From assembly GCA_013824915.1 (NCBI GenBank), contig PNOQ01000053.1, positions 1 through 48,090 of the forward strand: DNA of 48,090 bases. Direction: 5' to 3'. Source of the DNA: Nanoarchaeum sp. Its GTDB lineage: Archaea; Nanobdellota; Nanobdellia; SCGC-AAA011-G17; PNOQ01. Positions 14,961 through 30,509 of this stretch are shown piece after piece (the stretch's first letter is position 1; each line of letters opens with the position of its first letter). The position numbers and the translations under genes are program-made. A model generated the notes under the pieces. The model ran no database searches and was not told the DNA's origin. It saw nothing but the letters and a program-made list of their open reading frames with translations.

Positions 14961-15848
14961 TTACATAGATCTTAATCTTTTGATTCTGTCGTCTATAGGT
15001 GGATGTGTACTCCACAACTTAGATAAGTTCTTTTTAGAGAATGGATTAGATATGAATAAATGTGCTGTAGCTTTATTTGCTTTGTCTACTAAAGGATCTG
15101 GATCTTGTTTTATTTTTTCTAATGCCGAAGCTAAGCCTTCTGGATATCTAGTTAGGATAGCTCCTGAAGCGTCAGCCATATACTCTCTTTTTCTTGAAAT
15201 TGCTAATTTGATCAGTTCTACAAATATTGGAGCTAGAATGGCTAAAACTAATCCTATAATCAAAAATATTGCGTGAGAATTATTTCTATCATTACTGCCT
15301 TTCCCACCATATAACATAGATCTTAAAAAGAAATCACTCAATAAAACAGTAATACCTACTAGAACTGCAGTTAACATCATAAACCTAATATCATAATTTT
15401 TTATATGAGACATTTCATGAGCAATAACTCCTTCTAGTTCTTGTCTGTTTAATTTATTTAGTAAACCAGTTGTTACAGTGATTGATGCTTTTTTTGGATC
15501 TTTTCCTGTAGCAAATGCGTTTAATGCCGAATCCTCAATAACGTATACTTTAGGTGTTGGAATTCCTGCAGCAATTGCTAATCCTTCAACAGAATGATAT
15601 AAGTGTGGATAATCTTGTTTTTTTACCTCTTTAGCACCAGACATGGATAGTATCATCTTATCGCCCGAATTAAAAACAATTAAAGTGTAGAAAAATGCAA
15701 ATATTGCGGCTAATATTGCACCTGCATAGATATTACCCCAAAAGTTCCCTAAACCTAAACCTATTAATGTAATTATGATTATGAATATAAATATTAAGAA
15801 AATTGAGTTCCACTTATTTCTATTTACCTCTGAAAACATGTCTGCCAT
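14961..15848 (-). CDS. htpX: HtpX-like M48 zinc metalloprotease
   Basis: NAFATG, HEMSH, SRKREYMADA, STHPP; downstream of lemA. Confidence 0.93.
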   Translation of the reverse strand: MADMFSEVNRNKWNSIFLIFIFIIIITLIGLGLGNFWGNIYAGAILAAIFAFFYTLIVFNSGDKMILSMSGAKEVKKQDYPHLYHSVEGLAIAAGIPTPKVYVIEDSALNAFATGKDPKKASITVTTGLLNKLNRQELEGVIAHEMSHIKNYDIRFMMLTAVLVGITVLLSDFFLRSMLYGGKGSNDRNNSHAIFLIIGLVLAILAPIFVELIKLAISRKREYMADASGAILTRYPEGLASALEKIKQDPDPLVDKANKATAHLFISNPFSKKNLSKLWSTHPPIDDRIKRLRSM

Positions 15849-15863
15849 ATTAAATAAAAAAAG

Positions 15864-16415
15864 TTAAAATTTAACCTTTACAGGTTCTTTTTCCTTTTCT
15901 TCTGTCTTGAAGAATTCTTCTTCCTTGAAGCCCATTATACCTGCTGCGATGTTACTTGGGAATACATGTATTTTTGTGTTATAATCCATAGTTGTGTCGT
16001 TGTAGTATTGCCTTGCGTAACTAATCTTGTTTTCTGTGCCAGCTAACTCTTCTTGAAGCATTTTGAAATTTTCAGAAGCTTGTAACTTCGGATAGTTTTC
16101 AGCTACTGCAAATACAGATTTTAATGCTTCTGTGATTTGGTTAGATGCTTTTGCTCTTTCTGTTAATGAACCAGAAACTAAATTAGCTCTTGCGTTAGTA
16201 ATCTCTGTTAGAACTTCTCTTTCATGTTTCATGTAACCTTTGACAGATTCAATTAAATTTGGGATTAAATCGTATCTTCTTTTTAACTGTACATCTATCT
16301 GGCTCCAAGCGTTTTTTACTTTATATCTTAATCTTACTAATGAGTTGAATATCAAAATAACCCATAAGACTAAAATACCAAGTACAATTAAGCCTATTAT
16401 CAATGAACTTACCAT
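15864..16415 (-). CDS. lemA: LemA family protein
   Basis: NAWSQIDVQLKRRYDLIPNL, AENYPKL, ENKISYARQYYN. Confidence 0.96.
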   Translation of the reverse strand: MVSSLIIGLIVLGILVLWVILIFNSLVRLRYKVKNAWSQIDVQLKRRYDLIPNLIESVKGYMKHEREVLTEITNARANLVSGSLTERAKASNQITEALKSVFAVAENYPKLQASENFKMLQEELAGTENKISYARQYYNDTTMDYNTKIHVFPSNIAAGIMGFKEEEFFKTEEKEKEPVKVKF

Positions 16416-24793: not shown

Positions 24794-25333
24794 TTATTTT
24801 AACTTTTTCAAATTGGTAACTAGCTTGTTTATTGCTTCTTTTAGTAAAATTTCAGATTTTGTACCTGTACAAACTATCTTTCCATTACTGAATAACAAGA
24901 AAGTTGCCCTTGTTCCGGGTAATTTGTAAACTAGACCTGGAAATTGTTCTGGTTCGTATTCTGAATTCTCTAATTTCATTGCCAATTCGTTTAAATTTAA
25001 ATCCATGGCAATGTCCCCAGCAGCTACCATATTTTGAATTGTAATCTTTGGTTTTATCGTTACTTTAACGCCGATCTTAGCTACGGCTTTGATTATCTGG
25101 TTTATTGATTCTCTTACTTTTAACATAGATCTAGCACCAGTACAAACGACTTTACCTGAACTGAAAATCAATGCTGATGTTTTTGGTTCACGAATTCTCA
25201 TTACTAATCCTGGAAATTGTTCCGGATTATACTCGGTGTTTGATAAAGTTTCAGCCAACTTAATCAAGTGCACATCATGTTCTAAAGATGTAGAACAAAC
25301 AATATTAACGATTTTAAAAGTTATTTTTGTCAT
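24794..25333 (-). CDS. tbp: TATA-box binding protein
   Basis: Two repeats: YNPEQFPGLV...IFSSGKVVCTG and YEPEQFPGLV...LFSNGKIVCTG. Confidence 0.98.
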   Translation of the reverse strand: MTKITFKIVNIVCSTSLEHDVHLIKLAETLSNTEYNPEQFPGLVMRIREPKTSALIFSSGKVVCTGARSMLKVRESINQIIKAVAKIGVKVTIKPKITIQNMVAAGDIAMDLNLNELAMKLENSEYEPEQFPGLVYKLPGTRATFLLFSNGKIVCTGTKSEILLKEAINKLVTNLKKLK

Positions 25334-25419: not shown

Positions 25420-28212
25420 TTAGTTAGTAATTTCCATAAGAATAGTAAATTCTTTGTCTTTTATTGTAACGTTTTCTTTGATTTTGTAATTTTTTTCTTT
25501 GAAATCTAAACTTATTGCTCCGACCTTAGAAGATATTGTTTCTGACCATTTAGTTAAATTTACTGGAGTTATTATTGCTAATTTAATTTTATCTTGTTTG
25601 TTTAGATTTTGGGATTTTCTCATGTCTTGTACTTTTCTAGCTATTTCTCTTGCAAAACCTTCTTCTTCTAACTCTTTTGTCATTTTTGTATCAAATACTA
25701 AATTGAATTCACCTTTTTTAATTTCTAATTTTTTTATGTTTAATTGTCTCATTACTAATGCTTGTAACTCTTTTGATAATTTTTTATCTGAATTTACAGT
25801 TGCTTTTGATAATGGCCATTTTAATCCAATTTGTACTTTATTCCTTTCTTTCATTCCTGCTTCTAATATTTGCATAACAAATTTGAATTCTTCTTCTAAC
25901 TTAGAATCTATCTTTTTTTCATCGAAAGTTGGCCAAGATTGTAGATGGACTGACTCTTTTTCATTTAATTCAATCCAAATCTTATCAGTTAGGAATGGAC
26001 AAACAATAGAAAACATCTTTAATGTATCTTTATAAACTTCATTAACTGTATGTAAAACTTTGCCTGGTTCTGAATTAACTTTATCTCTTGTAAATTGAAT
26101 ATAAACTCTTGATAAGTCTAAATATAAATTTTCTATTTCTCTTATAATTTCATCAATTTTGTATTGTTCCATTAATTCTGTTACTTTTTTTATTGTTGAA
26201 TTTTTCCTAGAAATTATATATTTTTCTTCTAAATCCATTGATTTATCTTCTTTAGTTTGTAATTTTAATTCTGATATGAATCTTGATAGATTATACAATA
26301 TGTTTAGATTTCTCTGTTTTATTTTTACATCTTCCCAACTAAAGTTTATGTTTTCCCCAGCAGGAACTTGACACATGTAGTATCTTAAAACATCTGCACC
26401 ATATTTGTCTACAACTTCATAAGGAGAAATTATGTTTCCTAAACTTTTGGACATCTTTGTGCCCTGATAATCTAAAATCATACCGTGACAATATACATTA
26501 TTATAACAAGATTTACCTAATGCTACAGCGGAACATATTTGCAACATACTGAACCATAATTTGATTTGTTCTGTTGCTTCTAAAATAAAATCTGCTGGGA
26601 AATATTTCTCGAAAAGTTCGGTTTTATTAGGATAGTATAAACAATTCCATGAAGTTGTGCCAGAATCAATCCATACATCTATAACATCTTTTACTCTGTG
26701 CATTTTAGCTTTACATTTTGGGCATTCTAAAACAACTGCATCTATCCAAGGTTTGTGTAAATCTGCTGGAACTTTTCCTTTTAGTTTTTTTATTTCTTCT
26801 GAATTTGCTATAACTTCTATGTTATCACATTTAGAACATTCCCAAATTGGAATTGGGCATCCCCAATATCTTTGTCTTGAAATCCCATTATCTTTTAAAT
26901 TTTCAATCCAATTATCGTAATTTTTCTTAGTATAATTTGGCTGCCAGTTCACATTATCATTAAATTTAAGCATATTAGGAATTAAATCTTCTATCTTCAT
27001 GAACCATTGTTCGGTTGATCTAAATACTACAGGATTATGACATCTCCAACATGTTGCATATTCATGTGAAACAGGGGTTTGTAAAACTAAAGTATTTAAT
27101 GAGTCTAATTCTTCAATAAATTTTTTATCATCTTTTTTTGCTTTCCATCCATTAAATTTTCCACAATTTTTGAAAATACCTTTTTCATCAATTTCATTGA
27201 AAGCATCTATTTCGTAAGGTTTACATGCATCGAAATCTTCTGGACCACAACCAGGAGCACAATGAACTAAACCAGAACCTGCTTCCAAAGTTACGTAATC
27301 TTTTGATAATATAACAGTATGAATATTTTTTGATTTTTTCTTTAATTCTTTGTAATCTATTTCTGATTCGAAAGGATGTTTGTATTCTAATCCTTCTAGA
27401 GATTTGCCACTGAATGTTTTTAATATTTTATACTCTTTGTTGAATAACTCCATTACGGGTTTAACTAAATCTGTAGCTAGTATCCATTTTTCTTTTTCAA
27501 CTTGAACTTCAGAATAATCAAAATCCGGATTAACCATTATGGCTAAATTAAATGGTATTGTCCATGGAGTAGTTGTCCATATTAATAAAAATCTATTATC
27601 TTTTGTTTTGAATTTTAAGAATATTGAGTTATCTTCTAAGTTTTTGTATTCCAATTCATGTTTTGCTAAAGATGTTTCGCAACTTGCACACCAATGCATT
27701 ATTTTTTTGCCTTTGTATAACCTATCTTGGTTGTAAGCCTGTTTTATTAACCACCATTCACTTTCCATGAATTCATTTTTTATAGGCCAATATGCATTTT
27801 CAAAATCCATCCAAACACCTAAACGTGTTAAATCTTGATCCATTTGTTTGGCATTATTTGAAGAAAATTTTATACATTCTTTAATGAATTTTTCAACACC
27901 ATATTTTTCTATTTCTAATTTGTCTTTTATTTTAAGTTGTTTTTGAACTGCATTTTCAGTTGGAAGGCCATGCATATCATAACCCGCTCTGTCCCAAACA
28001 TTGAAACCATTCATTCGTTTATATCTTAAAACTAAATCTTTTATTGTATTATTCCATGCATGCCCAATGTGTAGTCTACCTGAAGTGTATGGTGGGCCTT
28101 GTAAAAAATAAAACTTCTTACCTTTTATGTTTTTTTTATTTATTTTTGAATGTGTTTTATTCTCTTCCCAGAATTTTAATACTTCTTCCTCAACTAGTTT
28201 AAAATCATACAT
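25420..28212 (-). CDS. ileS: Isoleucyl-tRNA synthetase
   Basis: GPPYTSG.LHIGH, WTTTPWT and GSGLVH.AP editing motifs, ISRQRYWG, KMSKS; GGAG SD at 28223-28220. Confidence 0.96.
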   Translation of the reverse strand: MYDFKLVEEEVLKFWEENKTHSKINKKNIKGKKFYFLQGPPYTSGRLHIGHAWNNTIKDLVLRYKRMNGFNVWDRAGYDMHGLPTENAVQKQLKIKDKLEIEKYGVEKFIKECIKFSSNNAKQMDQDLTRLGVWMDFENAYWPIKNEFMESEWWLIKQAYNQDRLYKGKKIMHWCASCETSLAKHELEYKNLEDNSIFLKFKTKDNRFLLIWTTTPWTIPFNLAIMVNPDFDYSEVQVEKEKWILATDLVKPVMELFNKEYKILKTFSGKSLEGLEYKHPFESEIDYKELKKKSKNIHTVILSKDYVTLEAGSGLVHCAPGCGPEDFDACKPYEIDAFNEIDEKGIFKNCGKFNGWKAKKDDKKFIEELDSLNTLVLQTPVSHEYATCWRCHNPVVFRSTEQWFMKIEDLIPNMLKFNDNVNWQPNYTKKNYDNWIENLKDNGISRQRYWGCPIPIWECSKCDNIEVIANSEEIKKLKGKVPADLHKPWIDAVVLECPKCKAKMHRVKDVIDVWIDSGTTSWNCLYYPNKTELFEKYFPADFILEATEQIKLWFSMLQICSAVALGKSCYNNVYCHGMILDYQGTKMSKSLGNIISPYEVVDKYGADVLRYYMCQVPAGENINFSWEDVKIKQRNLNILYNLSRFISELKLQTKEDKSMDLEEKYIISRKNSTIKKVTELMEQYKIDEIIREIENLYLDLSRVYIQFTRDKVNSEPGKVLHTVNEVYKDTLKMFSIVCPFLTDKIWIELNEKESVHLQSWPTFDEKKIDSKLEEEFKFVMQILEAGMKERNKVQIGLKWPLSKATVNSDKKLSKELQALVMRQLNIKKLEIKKGEFNLVFDTKMTKELEEEGFAREIARKVQDMRKSQNLNKQDKIKLAIITPVNLTKWSETISSKVGAISLDFKEKNYKIKENVTIKDKEFTILMEITN

Positions 28213-28282
28213 TGTTATTCTCCAGTGTTAGTTTTTTGTTTAAATAGCTTGCCATTGTTGAACCTTTAAAGATAGGTCTAGC

Positions 28283-28324
28283 CTAGATAATAGAAATAAT
28301 CCTTATTTGTATTAAGCTAACCAT
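28283..28324 (-). CDS. Putative ileS leader peptide MVSLIQIRIISII
   Basis: ATG GTT AGC TTA ATA CAA ATA AGG ATT ATT TCT ATT ATC TAG; 6 of 13 codons Ile; ATG sits at the window's leaderless-start distance from a TATA box. Confidence 0.7.
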   Translation of the reverse strand: MVSLIQIRIISII

Positions 28325-28345
28325 GAAATAGCTAAAATTGGAAAT

Positions 28346-28360
28346 TATTTAAAGCTTTCT
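28346..28360 (-). promoter_or_regulatory. BRE/TATA promoter of the ileS leader
   Basis: AGAAAGC-TTTAAATA at -29..-22 from ATG 28324, same spacing as for trmB-like (7631), lemA (16415) and trm5-like (35153). Confidence 0.75.
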
Positions 28361-28417
28361 GATTTGCTTGCCAAGTACTTACAAAACTCTTATAAATGTG
28401 CTAGGACTTACGGTTTT

Positions 28418-29353
28418 ATGTTTGTAGAAAAGTATAGACCGCAGGGATTTTCTGATATGAAAGGGCAGGAAAAGATAGTTTCTAGAATCAAAGCTTTCGT
28501 AGATTCAAAGAATATACCTCATTTGTTATTTTCTGGGCCCGCAGGAGTTGGAAAAACTACTTTGTCTTTAATTGTTGCAAGAGAATTATTTGGTGAAGAT
28601 TGGAAAAATAATTTTTTAGAATTAAATGCTTCAGATGAAAGAGGTATTGATGTTATAAGAAACAAAGTAAAAGATTTTGCTAGGACTATGTCTGTTATGG
28701 GAGTTCCGTTTAAAGTTATTTATTTAGATGAATGTGATTCTTTGACTAGTGAAGCACAACAAGCATTAAGAAGAACTATGGAAAATTATTCTAATACCTG
28801 TAGATTTATTTTGTCTTGTAATTATTCAAGTAAAATTATTGATCCTATACAATCTAGATGTACTGTTTTCAGATTTCAACCTTTGAAACTTGAAGATATT
28901 CATGCCATAATAAAAGATATTTCAAAAAAAGAAGGAATTGAAATAACTAATGAAGCTATAAAAGCAATTTATGAAATTAGTAATGGAGATGCTAGAAAGG
29001 CTGAAAATATTTTGCAAAGTTGTGCTGTAATAAATAAAAAAATAGATGAAAAATTGATTTATGATATTGTTTCTTTTGCTCAACCAAGAGAAATTATACA
29101 AGTCTTGGAAATGAGTTTAGCAGGAGAATTTGCTAAAGCACGAGATTTATTGTTAGATATAATGCTAAAACATGGTTTATCTGGAATTGATATAATAAAA
29201 CAAATACAAAGAGAAGTATTAGAATTAAAAATAGATGAATCAAAGAAGGCTAAAATGATAGAAAAATGTGGTGAAATAGAGTTTAGAATGGTAGAAGGTA
29301 GTGATGAGTATATACAATTAGAAGCATTATTAGCTGGATTTATTTCAATATAA
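28418..29353 (+). CDS. rfcS: Replication factor C small subunit
   Basis: VEKYRP, GPAGVGKT, LELNASDERG, LDECD, QALRRTME, SRC; likely ATG at 28418. Confidence 0.97.
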   Translation: MFVEKYRPQGFSDMKGQEKIVSRIKAFVDSKNIPHLLFSGPAGVGKTTLSLIVARELFGEDWKNNFLELNASDERGIDVIRNKVKDFARTMSVMGVPFKVIYLDECDSLTSEAQQALRRTMENYSNTCRFILSCNYSSKIIDPIQSRCTVFRFQPLKLEDIHAIIKDISKKEGIEITNEAIKAIYEISNGDARKAENILQSCAVINKKIDEKLIYDIVSFAQPREIIQVLEMSLAGEFAKARDLLLDIMLKHGLSGIDIIKQIQREVLELKIDESKKAKMIEKCGEIEFRMVEGSDEYIQLEALLAGFISI

Positions 29354-29354
29354 A

Positions 29355-30509
29355 ATGTGGACAAAAAAATACGCTCCGAATTCTGTAAAAGAAATAGTTG
29401 GGAATACTAGTTCAATTATGAAGCTAGAAGGATTTATTAAAAATTTTAAAAAAACTAAGAAAAAAGCAGTTATGTTGTATGGCCCAACTGGAACTGGAAA
29501 AACACAAGCTGTTTATGCATTGTCGCAAGATTATGATTTAGAAATTTTAGAAGTTAATGCTAGTGATTTTAGAAATAAAGAAATGATAAATGAAACTGTT
29601 GGAAAAGCAATGAATCAATATAGTTTATTTGGAAAAGGAAAAATAATACTTATTGATGAAATAGATGGTTTATCTGGAAACAATGATAGGGGTGGAGCTC
29701 AGGCCTTAGCTGCTTTGTTAGATAGAACTTCATTTCCTATAATTATGACTGCTAATGATCCGTGGGATAAAAAATTGGCTTCCTTAAGAAGCAAATCAAT
29801 TATGGTAGAATTTGAAGCGTTAAATTATTTAGATGTTTTTAGAGTATTGAGAAAAATAGCAGATAAAGAAGAAATACAAATAACAGATCAAGACTTGAAA
29901 ACTATTTCTAATGGTGCAGGCGGCGATTTAAGATCGGCAATAAATGATTTTTATTTAGTTTCGTTTAAGAGAAAAAAAGTAAAAAGTGAAGATTTGGAAG
30001 ATATTGGAGAGAGAAATAGAGAAGAACATGTACATAGTTTGTTGAACTTAATGTTTAAGAGTAAAAATTCTAAGATGATATTAGAATCGTTTGATAATAC
30101 AAACTTAGAGTTTAATGAGTTAAAATTGTGGATTGATGAAAACTTACCAAAAGCATATAATAAATCAGAATTGAAAGATGCATATAATAGTTTATCCAAA
30201 TCAGATGTATTTAATGGTAGAATAATTAGAAGACAATATTGGAGATTTTTAGTTTATCAAAAATATTTTATGTCTGTTGGTGTTGCAATGAGTAAAAAAG
30301 AAGCTAAAAAAGAATTAATTAATTATGCTCCAACAAAAAGAATCTTAAAAATCTGGAGATCAAAAATGAAATATGCAAAAAGAGATATTTTAGTTGATAA
30401 GATTGCCAATGAATGTCATGTTTCTAGTAAAAAAGCACTAAAAGAAGTTTTACCTTATTGTCAAGTGTTTTTAGAGAAAGATTTAGTTGCTGAAAGCAAT
30501 CTTTCTTAA
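29355..30509 (+). CDS. rfcL: Replication factor C large subunit
   Basis: WTKKYAP, GPTGTGKT, EVNASD.R, IDEIDG, GDLRSAIND, WIDEN. Confidence 0.95.
   Translation: MWTKKYAPNSVKEIVGNTSSIMKLEGFIKNFKKTKKKAVMLYGPTGTGKTQAVYALSQDYDLEILEVNASDFRNKEMINETVGKAMNQYSLFGKGKIILIDEIDGLSGNNDRGGAQALAALLDRTSFPIIMTANDPWDKKLASLRSKSIMVEFEALNYLDVFRVLRKIADKEEIQITDQDLKTISNGAGGDLRSAINDFYLVSFKRKKVKSEDLEDIGERNREEHVHSLLNLMFKSKNSKMILESFDNTNLEFNELKLWIDENLPKAYNKSELKDAYNSLSKSDVFNGRIIRRQYWRFLVYQKYFMSVGVAMSKKEAKKELINYAPTKRILKIWRSKMKYAKRDILVDKIANECHVSSKKALKEVLPYCQVFLEKDLVAESNLS

What the first reader, a model, noticed from the sequence alone, without database searches (positions are those of the whole stretch)
28205..28360. Isoleucine-sensing leader peptide upstream of archaeal ileS: candidate ribosome-mediated attenuator
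Seen in sequence: a minus-strand uORF at 28324-28283 encodes MVSLIQIRIISII*. Six of 13 codons are Ile (ATA, ATA, ATT, ATT, ATT, ATC), four of them in the last five. Its ATG lies 22 nt from a TTTAAATA box, exactly as for the leaderless trmB-like, lemA and trm5-like genes here, so the ileS mRNA probably begins with this uORF. ileS itself starts 112 nt into the transcript with a GGAG SD. The end of the uORF (UAUUAUCUAG, 28292-28283) can pair at 9 of 10 positions, including one G-U, with CUGGAGAAUA (28225-28216), which contains that SD. Established: cognate-amino-acid-rich leader peptides control bacterial operons such as trp, his, ilv and pheST, and T-boxes control many bacterial ileS genes. I know of no characterised equivalent for an archaeal synthetase. 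Inference: low Ile-tRNA stalls the ribosome over the anti-SD and frees the ileS SD, giving translational attenuation. Both Ile decoding systems (AUA and AUU/AUC) would be sampled. Caveat: Ile codons are common in AT-rich DNA.
Basis: partly seen in the sequence, partly recalled or inferred. Interest (0 to 1): 0.9.

Follow-up and report, generated by a model that had tools for sequence, protein, structure and literature searches.

The report
Isoleucine-rich leader ORF before archaeal ileS
A tiny gene made largely of isoleucine codons sits in front of the isoleucyl-tRNA synthetase gene in many small DPANN archaea. It looks like a sensor that lets stalled ribosomes adjust synthetase production, a kind of control well known in bacteria but not found described for archaea.

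Summary
The 13-codon ORF (28324-28283, minus; MVSLIQIRIISII*) starts at the position of a leaderless gene. It is the most Ile-enriched of 834 small intergenic ORFs in this genome.

An equivalent ORF precedes ileS in 33 loci from at least seven families. In all 33 it is in frame; in the 23 checked, its ATG lies 28-33 nt after a TATA box in 22. It has 11-27 codons, 45% of them Ile and 74% of the last six. In the first 23 loci the stop is TAG in 20.

A hairpin (P2) follows within 0-9 nt of the stop in 27 of the 29 loci where one was parsed. Its arms co-vary between lineages.

The pairing of the uORF end with the ileS Shine-Dalgarno is no better than shuffles, and that SD is not conserved. In the window's family the 3' arm of P2 is SD-like and precedes a second small ORF whose stop overlaps the ileS start.

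A conserved second BRE/TATA lies 32 nt before ileS, so two promoters are likely. No RNA data exist, so the transcript, the direction of control and the output step are inferred. No cognate-rich uORF was seen before 13 other aaRS genes here.

The parts
28346..28353 (-). distal TATA box (TTTAAATA), preceded by A-rich BRE-like AGAAAGC; promoter of the leaderless uORF1 transcript
   Evidence: TTTAAA starts at -29 from the uORF1 ATG, the genome-wide mode for gene starts. The spacing is -28 to -33 in 22 of 23 related leaders.
28283..28324 (-). uORF1, the Ile-codon leader ORF MVSLIQIRIISII* (stop TAG 28285-28283)
   Evidence: Conserved in 33 loci and always in frame; 209 of 469 non-start codons are Ile.
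28314..28319 (-). P1 5' strand (UAGCUU, codons 2-4 of uORF1)
   Evidence: Centroid fold. In the swap test, cognate partners beat other-clade partners (1 of 20000 permutations). P1 is poor or absent in about a third of the loci.
28279..28284 (-). P1 3' strand (AG of the stop codon plus GCUA)
28274..28278 (-). P2 5' arm (GACCU), starting 4 nt after the stop codon
28261..28265 (-). P2 3' arm (AGGUU), SD-like, 5 nt before the AUG of uORF2
   Evidence: P2 swap test: 0 of 20000 permutations; 1 and 36 of 20000 with 33 loci.
28205..28255 (-). uORF2 (MASYLNKKLTLENNNV*, 16 codons); its TGA (28207-28205) overlaps ileS codons 2-3
   Evidence: In 18 of 23 loci an ORF opens just after P2 and either ends at or within 6 nt of the ileS ATG or is in frame with ileS.
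28238..28246 (-). proximal TATA-like box (TATTTAAAC), lying inside uORF2, with TTTAAA at -32 from the ileS ATG; probable second promoter
   Evidence: Invariant TAT-TAAA columns in the 15-sequence alignment. Present at -32/-33 in family loci that lack uORF1. -32 is within the shoulder of the genome's TATA distribution.
28220..28223 (-).
   Evidence: Not conserved in relatives.
25420..28212 (-). ileS (isoleucyl-tRNA synthetase, 930 aa)
   Evidence: Pfam tRNA-synt_1 5.4e-119 and Anticodon_1 4.7e-29; orthologues found.

Best explanation
uORF1 is a leaderless sensory leader ORF for ileS. Its only conserved coding content is a cluster of Ile codons at its 3' end. These are mostly AUU/AUC, the codons read by tRNA-Ile(GAU), and they are followed by a stop (usually UAG) and then, 0-9 nt later, by a hairpin (P2).

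Proposed mechanism. When charged tRNA-Ile is scarce, the ribosome that loaded at the 5'-terminal AUG dwells on the last Ile codons. Its leading edge then reaches into the 5' arm of P2 and keeps P2 open. In the window's family the freed 3' arm is a Shine-Dalgarno-like sequence 3-8 nt before the AUG of uORF2. uORF2 ends on the ileS start codon region (ATGTATGA), so ribosomes admitted to uORF2 are handed to ileS by termination-reinitiation. More IleRS is made when Ile-tRNA runs low. When Ile-tRNA is plentiful, uORF1 is cleared quickly, P2 refolds, and ileS is served mainly by a constitutive proximal promoter.

Shown: the ORF, its conservation, frame, codon content and leaderless geometry; the position and covariation of P2; the SD-like 3' arm; and the uORF2 arrangement in this family.

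Inferred: that the distal transcript reaches ileS; that stalling opens P2; the direction of control; and that the relay is positive. In more distant families ileS has its own SD and no relay ORF, so the output step may differ there.
For: 1. Specificity. uORF1 is the most Ile-rich of 834 small intergenic ORFs in the genome. It is one of only 4 uORFs with at least 4 identical residues among the last five, and the other three precede genes that are not aaRS by their sequence (a regulator-like protein, a Cys-rich secreted-looking protein and a hydrolase-like protein; no family search was run on them).

2. Conservation. There are 33 instances, all upstream of ileS, in loci with different upstream neighbours.

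3. Unbiased association. A scan of species-representative genomes for the 18-mer core gave 115 loci. Nine have an IleRS start 85-140 nt downstream on the same strand, and a tenth has the same leader cut off at a contig end. No other hit showed an IleRS-like match in the fetched stretch.

4. Coding signature. The ATG lies 28-33 nt after the TATA start in 22 of 23 loci. Lengths are 11-27 codons and always in frame. The N-terminal halves are unrelated, whereas the C-terminal I-x-I-I-I pattern and its variants are kept even where the nucleotides differ (TCT, GTT, TGT, ACT).

5. Codon and stop bias. ATT 98, ATC 18 and ATA 28 in uORF1s, whereas ATA is the commonest Ile codon genome-wide. TAG closes 20 of 23 uORF1s against 144 of 858 genes.

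6. P2. In 27 of 29 parsed loci it starts no more than 9 nt after the stop. The 40 nt after the stop fold to -7.15 kcal/mol on average, against -2.78 for 833 control small ORFs and -3.37 for GC-matched controls (Mann-Whitney on clade representatives, p 2e-7). Cognate arms beat arms swapped between clades: 0 of 20000 permutations, and 1 and 36 of 20000. At least eight unrelated stem sequences occupy the same place.

7. The 3' arm carries a core SD 4-mer in 14 of 29 loci against 3 of 29 for the 5' arm. It is the G-richer arm in 21 loci and the poorer one in 6. SD motifs peak at -14 to -9 genome-wide.

8. uORF2, or an in-frame AUG, leads to the ileS start in 18 of 23 loci.

9. Precedent. Leaderless polycysteine sORFs in mycobacteria act in this way (bioRxiv 10.1101/834739; abstract and Discussion read).
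Against: 1. There are no transcript or ribosome data of any kind (one search lists no RNA holder).

2. A conserved BRE/TATA 32 nt before ileS suggests that ileS can be transcribed without the leader.

3. The window's own 127-nt leader folds no better than shuffles (z +0.60; 141 of 200 shuffles fold as well), and its P2 is one of the weaker ones (-6.7 kcal/mol).

4. RNAalifold on a MAFFT alignment of 16 leaders predicted no pairs. The covariation evidence therefore rests on my own swap test, not on a curated structural alignment.

5. A ribosome stalled at the first Ile codons of the cluster would not reach P2. Only the last one or two codons and the stop place it there, an inference from bacterial footprint sizes that I recalled.

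6. The SD-like 3' arm and uORF2 hold mainly for three families. In the other four families ileS has its own SD 52-112 nt away, and only 5 of 10 loci there have any ORF leading to it.

7. No alternative, mutually exclusive pairing was found.

8. Nine of 24 loci in the window's own family lack the element, so it is dispensable.

9. None of the 13 other aaRS genes looked at in this genome has a counterpart.
Confidence: 0.55

Rival explanations
1. Transcription-level control by the same sensor. uORF1 and P2 form a short upstream transcription unit that reads towards, or across, the proximal ileS promoter. Ribosome position on uORF1 sets premature termination or read-through (factor-dependent termination of untranslated RNA), and so sets promoter occlusion or the amount of leadered ileS mRNA.
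For: A conserved proximal BRE/TATA lies at -32 and is also found in relatives without the uORF, so the promoters are in tandem. Some loci carry T4-T7 runs in or just after P2, for example T5 after P2 in L017, L020 and L169 and T7 in the loop of L373. The distant families lack the relay ORF.
Against: The terminator-like scan found 0 sites at 27900-28700. Most loci have no run of five or more T after P2. No antiterminator alternative was found. Archaeal intrinsic termination needs oligo-T rather than hairpins (recalled knowledge), which leaves P2 unexplained.
Confidence: 0.15
2. Stalled-ribosome mRNA stabiliser. A ribosome paused on the 5'-proximal uORF1, helped by P1 and P2, protects the leadered ileS mRNA from 5'-to-3' decay, as ribosome stalling in the ermC leader stabilises that mRNA in Bacillus (recalled).
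For: The uORF sits at the extreme 5' end. P1 and P2 lie within 65 nt of the 5' end. This needs no alternative pairing, which fits the failure to find one, and it would work in both the relay and the SD-led architectures.
Against: It does not explain why the Ile codons cluster at the very end next to the stop, why P2 keeps a fixed distance from the stop, or why the 3' arm is SD-like with an AUG 3-8 nt after it. Nothing is known of RNA decay in these organisms.
Confidence: 0.08
3. The 3' end of uORF1 pairs with the ileS SD, and a ribosome stalled on it frees the SD.
For: The 9-of-10 complementarity is present in the window. L038 and L057 show better-than-shuffle pairing of the uORF end with the ileS initiation region (z -2.2 and -1.8).
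Against: Window z is -0.38, and 32% of shuffles do as well. Mean z over 23 loci is +0.18. The GGAG is not conserved in the family.
Confidence: 0.05
4. A structured non-coding RNA or protein-binding operator, for example IleRS binding its own leader, in which the open frame is incidental.
For: The core ATTATTTCTATTATTAT is conserved at nucleotide level. P1 and P2 co-vary. There is a bias to ATT and to TAG.
Against: The ATG is at the leaderless position and the frame is kept through lengths of 11-27 codons in 33 of 33 loci. The x position changes codon (TCT, GTT, TGT, ACT) while the Ile codons stay. Rfam gave no match. No loop resembling a tRNA anticodon loop was seen.
Confidence: 0.07
5. A small hydrophobic peptide with a function of its own, or a chance ORF in AT-rich DNA.
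For: The peptide is hydrophobic, and AT-rich DNA yields Ile codons.
Against: The N-terminal halves are unrelated between lineages. The link to ileS is strict. It ranks 1 of 834 for Ile content.
Confidence: 0.03

Closest known systems
Polycysteine leaderless short-ORF attenuators of mycobacteria (Canestrari et al., bioRxiv 10.1101/834739; abstract and Discussion read)
   Same: A leaderless sORF is the first cistron. Cognate codons run consecutively. [quoted passage not shown] Control is translational, with no intrinsic terminator.
   Different: The organisms are bacteria and the targets are cysteine metabolism operons, not an aaRS. Here the domain is Archaea, the amino acid is Ile, the codon cluster abuts the stop codon, the hairpin sits after the stop, a second relay ORF overlaps the target's start, and a second promoter is likely. 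Nothing has been tested here.
Classical leader-peptide transcription attenuators (trp, his, ilv, pheST of enterobacteria; recalled knowledge)
   Same: A short leader ORF is enriched in the codons of the amino acid that the downstream genes deal with. pheST shows that an aaRS can be the target.
   Different: Those use mutually exclusive antiterminator and terminator hairpins with a U-run. None was found here. The leader there is SD-led, not leaderless.
ermC / cat translational attenuation (as summarised in the Discussion of 10.1101/834739)
   Same: A ribosome arrested on a leader ORF remodels a hairpin and frees an SD.
   Different: There the arrest is drug- and peptide-dependent, not dependent on tRNA charging.
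T-box leaders of bacterial ileS, including the actinobacterial form that sequesters the SD (PMC1262725; passages read)
   Same: The regulated gene is the same, the presumed signal (uncharged tRNA-Ile) is the same, and the actinobacterial form acts on translation initiation.
   Different: T-boxes bind tRNA directly and have no ORF. Rfam found no T-box or any other family here.
Translational coupling by termination-reinitiation in archaea (PMC6728339; title and start of the abstract seen in the listing)
   Same: The uORF2 stop overlaps the ileS start region, the geometry that couples neighbouring genes.
   Different: The overlap here is 8 nt (ATGTATGA) rather than the ATGA or TGATG overlaps named in that abstract. 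Coupling has not been tested here.

Membership tests
Leader-peptide (ribosome-mediated) attenuators, broad sense | Short ORF upstream of the regulated gene, enriched in codons of the cognate amino acid | tested here: met
   6 of 12 post-start codons are Ile in the window. Across 33 loci, 209 of 469 are Ile, against a background of about 10%.
Leader-peptide (ribosome-mediated) attenuators, broad sense | Leader ORF and regulated gene lie on one transcript | not testable with these tools
   No RNA run holds the region. The TATA spacing argues for a start at the uORF1 ATG, but a proximal TATA at -32 may give a second start.
Leader-peptide (ribosome-mediated) attenuators, broad sense | Expression responds to supply of the amino acid through ribosome stalling | not testable with these tools
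   This needs a reporter or ribosome profiling.
Classical transcription attenuator (trp/his type) | Terminator hairpin with a U-run, and a mutually exclusive antiterminator | tested here: not met
   0 terminator-like sites at 27900-28700. P1 and P2 are adjacent rather than exclusive, and no conserved alternative pairing was found.
Translational attenuator with leaderless sensory sORF (mycobacterial type) | sORF starts at the 5' end of the mRNA | tested here: inconclusive
   TTTAAA lies at -29, the mode for genes of this genome. The spacing is -28 to -33 in 22 of 23 leaders. This is promoter geometry only; no TSS was mapped.
Translational attenuator with leaderless sensory sORF (mycobacterial type) | [quoted passage not shown] | tested here: inconclusive
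   P2 starts no more than 9 nt after the stop in 27 of 29 loci and co-varies. Its 3' arm has a core SD 4-mer in 14 of 29 loci, with an AUG 3-8 nt later in 14 loci. This does not hold in the distant families.
T-box riboswitch | Specifier loop, T-box sequence and stem I architecture | tested here: not met
   cmscan of 28100-28500 against Rfam 15 at E up to 1 gave 0 matches. The leader is only 112 nt.

The most novel reading that the evidence does not exclude
This would be the first family of ribosome-mediated, amino-acid-sensing leader ORFs in Archaea. It is a leaderless Ile-codon sensor that travels with ileS across many DPANN (Woesearchaeota-labelled) lineages. It works through a hairpin placed just after its stop codon and, in some families, through a two-ORF relay into the synthetase start. 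It would be a cis-acting control device in organisms with very few regulators.
Probability: 0.5. Interest if true: 0.85.

Novelty: new variant of a known kind. Interest (0 to 1): 0.8.

Why it matters
Charged-tRNA sensing by leader peptides and T-boxes is textbook bacterial biology. I found no archaeal counterpart in six full-text searches. How archaea match synthetase levels to demand is largely unknown.

A conserved, compact element of about 110 nt would give a directly testable model, because it has clear predictions: Ile codons, reading frame, hairpin arms, relay ORF. It bears on translation-coupled regulation on leaderless mRNAs, the dominant mRNA type in many archaea.

It would also show that genome-reduced, host-dependent DPANN cells keep a feedback loop on Ile-tRNA charging. 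Finally, it would provide a sequence signature for annotating ileS leaders in metagenomes.

Tried and rejected
I tested it with RNAduplex against 300 dinucleotide shuffles per locus on 23 loci. It was rejected (mean z +0.18).

- A third helix, between the spacer after the stop and the uORF2 AUG. RNAfold suggested it in the window and a few loci. The swap test shows nothing: 6905 of 20000 permutations reach the observed value.

- Alignment-based covariation. The MAFFT alignments A1, A2, A3 and A6 do not put the 3' arms of P2 in register, and RNAalifold predicted 0 pairs on 16 leaders. A covariance model built from two leaders (R1) found all 26 known leader copies in 100 sources and none in the negative loci, plus 2 antisense chance hits. 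Its alignment A5 forces divergent stems into gaps, so I did not run the count of structure pairs on it. Instead I used cognate-versus-swapped duplex energies.

- R1 on 151 genomes drawn evenly from the class. Six genomes matched at E up to 0.01. Three are known family members. The other three lie in other sequence with no Ile ORF and no IleRS, so they are false positives. R1 is too narrow: it misses the window's own genome at that threshold, so this says nothing about wider distribution.

- Metagenome scan for the 18-mer. Two have ileS 89-95 nt downstream (L277, L298), one has only a remote weak IleRS-like hit, and the rest are unrelated.

- Other aaRS genes. Thirteen were located through PF00133, PF00587 and PF00152. 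None has a cognate-rich uORF. The aaRS families not covered by these three Pfam models were not looked at.

- Whole-leader stability in the window: z +0.60.

- 16S rRNA 3' end of this genome: not found in the assembly. The anti-SD is therefore inferred from the SD peak.

- Expression: no RNA holder is listed. Read laying was not used, because DNA contigs cannot show a transcription start.

- Kinship of the four distant genomes to the window's genome is not given by the tool. They were not among the 240 genomes of the order searched.


Full report
What is there. On the minus strand, ileS (25420-28212; Pfam tRNA-synt_1 5.4e-119) is separated by 205 nt from a divergent replication factor C small-subunit gene. 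That gene starts at ATG 28418 with its own TATA at 28390-28396. TTTAAATA lies at 28353-28346, so TTTAAA begins 29 nt before the ATG.

The genome is 829 kb in 57 contigs with 30% G+C. It is dominated by leaderless genes. In 835 upstream regions TTTAAA/TTTATA peak sharply at -29 (45 and 72 genes), while GGAG/GGTG peak at -14 to -9 in a minority. The uORF therefore has the geometry of a leaderless gene start.

Is it more than chance? Ile makes up 9.1% of codons in genes and 10.1% in small intergenic ORFs. Of 834 ATG ORFs of 8-40 codons that begin in intergenic DNA on either strand, this one has the lowest binomial p for Ile content (5.6e-4). Of 340 ORFs of 10-16 codons it is the only one with six or more Ile. 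Only four uORFs in the genome have at least four identical residues among the last five. By their sequence the other three precede a regulator-like protein, a Cys-rich secreted-looking protein and a hydrolase-like protein, none of them an aaRS; no family search was run on them.

Relatives. I collected ileS loci from 30 relatives and read their upstream regions. In the window's family (25 genomes held) I saw 24 ileS starts, the last one. Fifteen carry an equivalent ORF 108-118 nt before ileS, for example MTSLIQIRIISII, MSKIIQIRTISIII, MKSSTIIISIII, MKKSKIGINSIII, MRVTNDINIISIIII, MVSSIIQIISIII and MINTITKITSIII. One more is a degenerate copy (L008), and one further leader is cut off by a contig end (L084). 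Eight loci lack it.

Among 86 ileS loci of other families of the same order (7, 79), four have it, two in each of two families: MVLTIEYKIISIII, MKIEKGIIISIIV, MNLPIFLEAIGILIVIII and MMALNLSRAERIFICIII.

An unbiased scan of one genome per prokaryotic species for the 18-mer ATTTCTATTATTATYTAG gave 115 loci. Nine have an IleRS start 85-140 nt downstream on the same strand, and a tenth has the same leader cut off at a contig end. No other hit showed an IleRS-like match in the fetched stretch; most of the listed records are titled as bacteria, and one archaeal hit (L080) lies in another context. Four of the nine come from genomes outside the order. In the families of those four I found ten more among 27 further ileS loci, for example MRQTIIANISIIIIS, MIVETQQKITSIKNIIISII, MNKLLIVQIIISIIIIA, MSGVISIIITIII and MRAKKPQNIRISSIVSFIIII.

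In all there are 33 full instances. Of their non-start codons, 209 of 469 are Ile (45%), rising to 74% in the last six codons.

Coding or RNA? The evidence favours a translated ORF.
- The ATG lies 28-33 nt after the TATA start in 22 of 23 leaders (one at -40).
- Lengths run from 11 to 27 codons, and the ATG is in frame with the Ile cluster and the stop in all 33.
- The N-terminal halves are unrelated between lineages.
- At distance the codon that interrupts the Ile run changes (TCT, GTT, TGT, ACT) while the Ile codons stay.

This is the pattern of a leader peptide whose product does not matter. There are also nucleotide-level biases. ATT 98, ATC 18 and ATA 28 are used, although ATA is the commonest Ile codon in the genome. 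TAG ends 20 of 23 uORFs, although only 144 of 858 genes end in TAG. These may reflect sensing of the AUU/AUC-reading tRNA, RNA pairing, or both.

Conserved RNA structure. Immediately after the stop there is a hairpin (P2).
- In 27 of 29 loci where my parser found at least four stacked pairs, it starts no more than 9 nt after the stop, most often after 4 nt.
- Its sequence differs between lineages: ACCUC/GAGGU, GUCUC/GAGGC, ACAUC/GGUGU, AGAGC/GCUCU, AGGCC/GGUCU, CAACCA/UGGUUG, UUUGAGC/GCUCAAA, UCUCCCU/AGGGAGA, ACUAGCU/GGCUAGU and others.
- The 40 nt after the stop fold to -7.15 kcal/mol on average. The figure is -2.78 for the same window after 833 control small ORFs of this genome, and -3.37 for GC-matched controls. 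Using 14 clade representatives, Mann-Whitney gives p 2e-7.
- MAFFT cannot register the arms, and RNAalifold predicted nothing. I therefore tested covariation by pairing each 5' half with the 3' half of other clades. Cognate pairs are stronger (-8.0 against -5.5 kcal/mol). Clade-level permutations reached the observed mean 0 times in 20000, and 1 and 36 times in 20000 with 33 instances and two choices of representatives.

A second helix (P1) pairs codons 2-5 of the uORF with the stop codon and the next few bases. It shows the same kind of signal (1 of 20000) but is poor or absent in about a third of the loci. The window's own leader, folded alone, is not unusually stable (z +0.60). Rfam has no match.

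What lies downstream. In the window's family and two others the 3' arm of P2 is purine-rich and SD-like. A core SD 4-mer is present in 14 of 29 3' arms against 3 of 29 5' arms, and the 3' arm is the G-richer arm in 21 loci against 6. An AUG follows 3-8 nt later in 14 loci. That AUG opens uORF2 (28255-28205 in the window, 16 codons). In 18 of 23 loci uORF2 behaves in one of three ways:
- it ends on the TGA that overlaps ileS codons 2-3 (ATGTATGA);
- it ends within 6 nt before the ileS ATG;
- it is in frame with ileS.

Overlapping stop and start codons are the geometry of termination-reinitiation coupling in archaea (PMC6728339; title and start of the abstract seen in the listing).

The same stretch also contains a conserved BRE/TATA (TATTTAAAC, 28246-28238; TTTAAA at -32 from ileS). 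It is invariant in the 15-sequence alignment. It is present at -32/-33 in family members that have no uORF1, where it must be the ileS promoter. Tandem promoters are therefore likely: a proximal one giving nearly leaderless ileS mRNA, and a distal one giving the leadered form.

In the four more distant families ileS has a strong SD of its own, the spacer is 52-112 nt, and only 5 of 10 loci have an ORF leading to the ileS start.

The GGAG at -11 is particular to the window's genus; most family members have no SD before ileS. Pairing between the last 21 nt of uORF1 and the ileS initiation region is no better than dinucleotide shuffles in the window (-5.9 against -5.2 +/- 1.9 kcal/mol; 32% of shuffles as good). 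Averaged over 23 loci the z-score is +0.18. Only L038 and L057 stand out, at z -2.2 and -1.8. I therefore keep the sensor and reject this output.

Most likely mechanism. The features shared by all instances are a leaderless ORF, Ile codons packed against the stop, and a co-varying hairpin within reach of a ribosome that sits on the last codons. They fit a translational attenuator of the kind shown for leaderless polycysteine ORFs in mycobacteria, where stalled ribosomes block a structure that hides the next ribosome-binding site (bioRxiv 10.1101/834739; abstract and Discussion read).

Low Ile-tRNA would prolong the ribosome's stay on the terminal Ile codons. That keeps P2 open and exposes the SD-like arm and the uORF2 AUG. 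uORF2 would then deliver ribosomes to the ileS start.

Several steps are inferred and not shown: the existence of the long transcript, the footprint argument, the sign of the effect, and the positive nature of the relay. Rival outputs remain open and are scored separately, namely control of read-through into or across the proximal promoter, and protection of the mRNA by the stalled ribosome.

Scope. I found no analogous cognate-rich uORF before 13 other aaRS genes of this genome. Here the device is therefore specific to ileS.

Novelty. Six full-text searches returned no paper whose title or abstract start describes an archaeal leader-peptide or ribosome-mediated attenuator. Only listings and abstract starts were seen, apart from the two papers I read. 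The library lacks most subscription journals, so this is not proof of absence. The kind of device is known from bacteria. The domain, the target, the leaderless-plus-post-stop-hairpin geometry and the relay ORF are new variants.

Verdict. Function remains untested.

Noticed in passing
window 28354-28389 (between the divergent TATA boxes); L001, L004, L010, L015, L017, L020, L026 upstream regions: A conserved TTGGCAA / TTGACAA / TTGTCAA motif lies between the RFC TATA and the ileS-side TATA, about 15-20 nt from each. It occurs in several genera, with or without uORF1. It may be a shared transcription-factor site of the divergent promoter pair.
   Followed up: no
window 24794-25333 (-), 28418-29353 (+), 29355-30509 (+): The neighbours of ileS are a TATA-binding protein gene (Pfam TBP 2.1e-60) downstream and two adjacent RFC-type AAA+ genes (small and large subunit-like) upstream on the other strand.
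   Followed up: partly
order-wide ileS search: IleRS falls into two classes in this order, about 50-83% and about 35-45% identical to the window's N-terminus, and both are scattered across families. Two genomes of other families (G200, G162) are 82-83% identical, closer than the window's own family (55-64%). This suggests horizontal exchange of ileS. In one distant family the leader was seen with the first class only (3 of 4 loci against 0 of 12).
   Followed up: partly
L014 (-37), L180 (-80), L380 (-73), L008 (-75/-102): Truncated or atypical Ile-containing uORFs occur before ileS: MIISKFEDLLNQNV, MKIIIICMIFYIPNKKVYK, MKQIIS and MSIIVNTLIFKWQII. They look like decayed or rearranged versions of the leader.
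   Followed up: no
spacers of L354, L355, L356, L376, L378, L380: TATA-like boxes (AATATAAAC, TTTATAAATA, AATATTTAAG) recur 35-45 nt before the SD-led ileS genes of distant families too. A promoter between leader and ileS may therefore be a general feature, or it may simply reflect AT-richness.
   Followed up: no
G000 contig C4, about 15700-15870 (upstream of the 794-aa class I aaRS gene): The upstream region of this gene contains a GC-rich stretch that looks like a tRNA gene on the opposite strand. It was not checked with ARAGORN.
   Followed up: no
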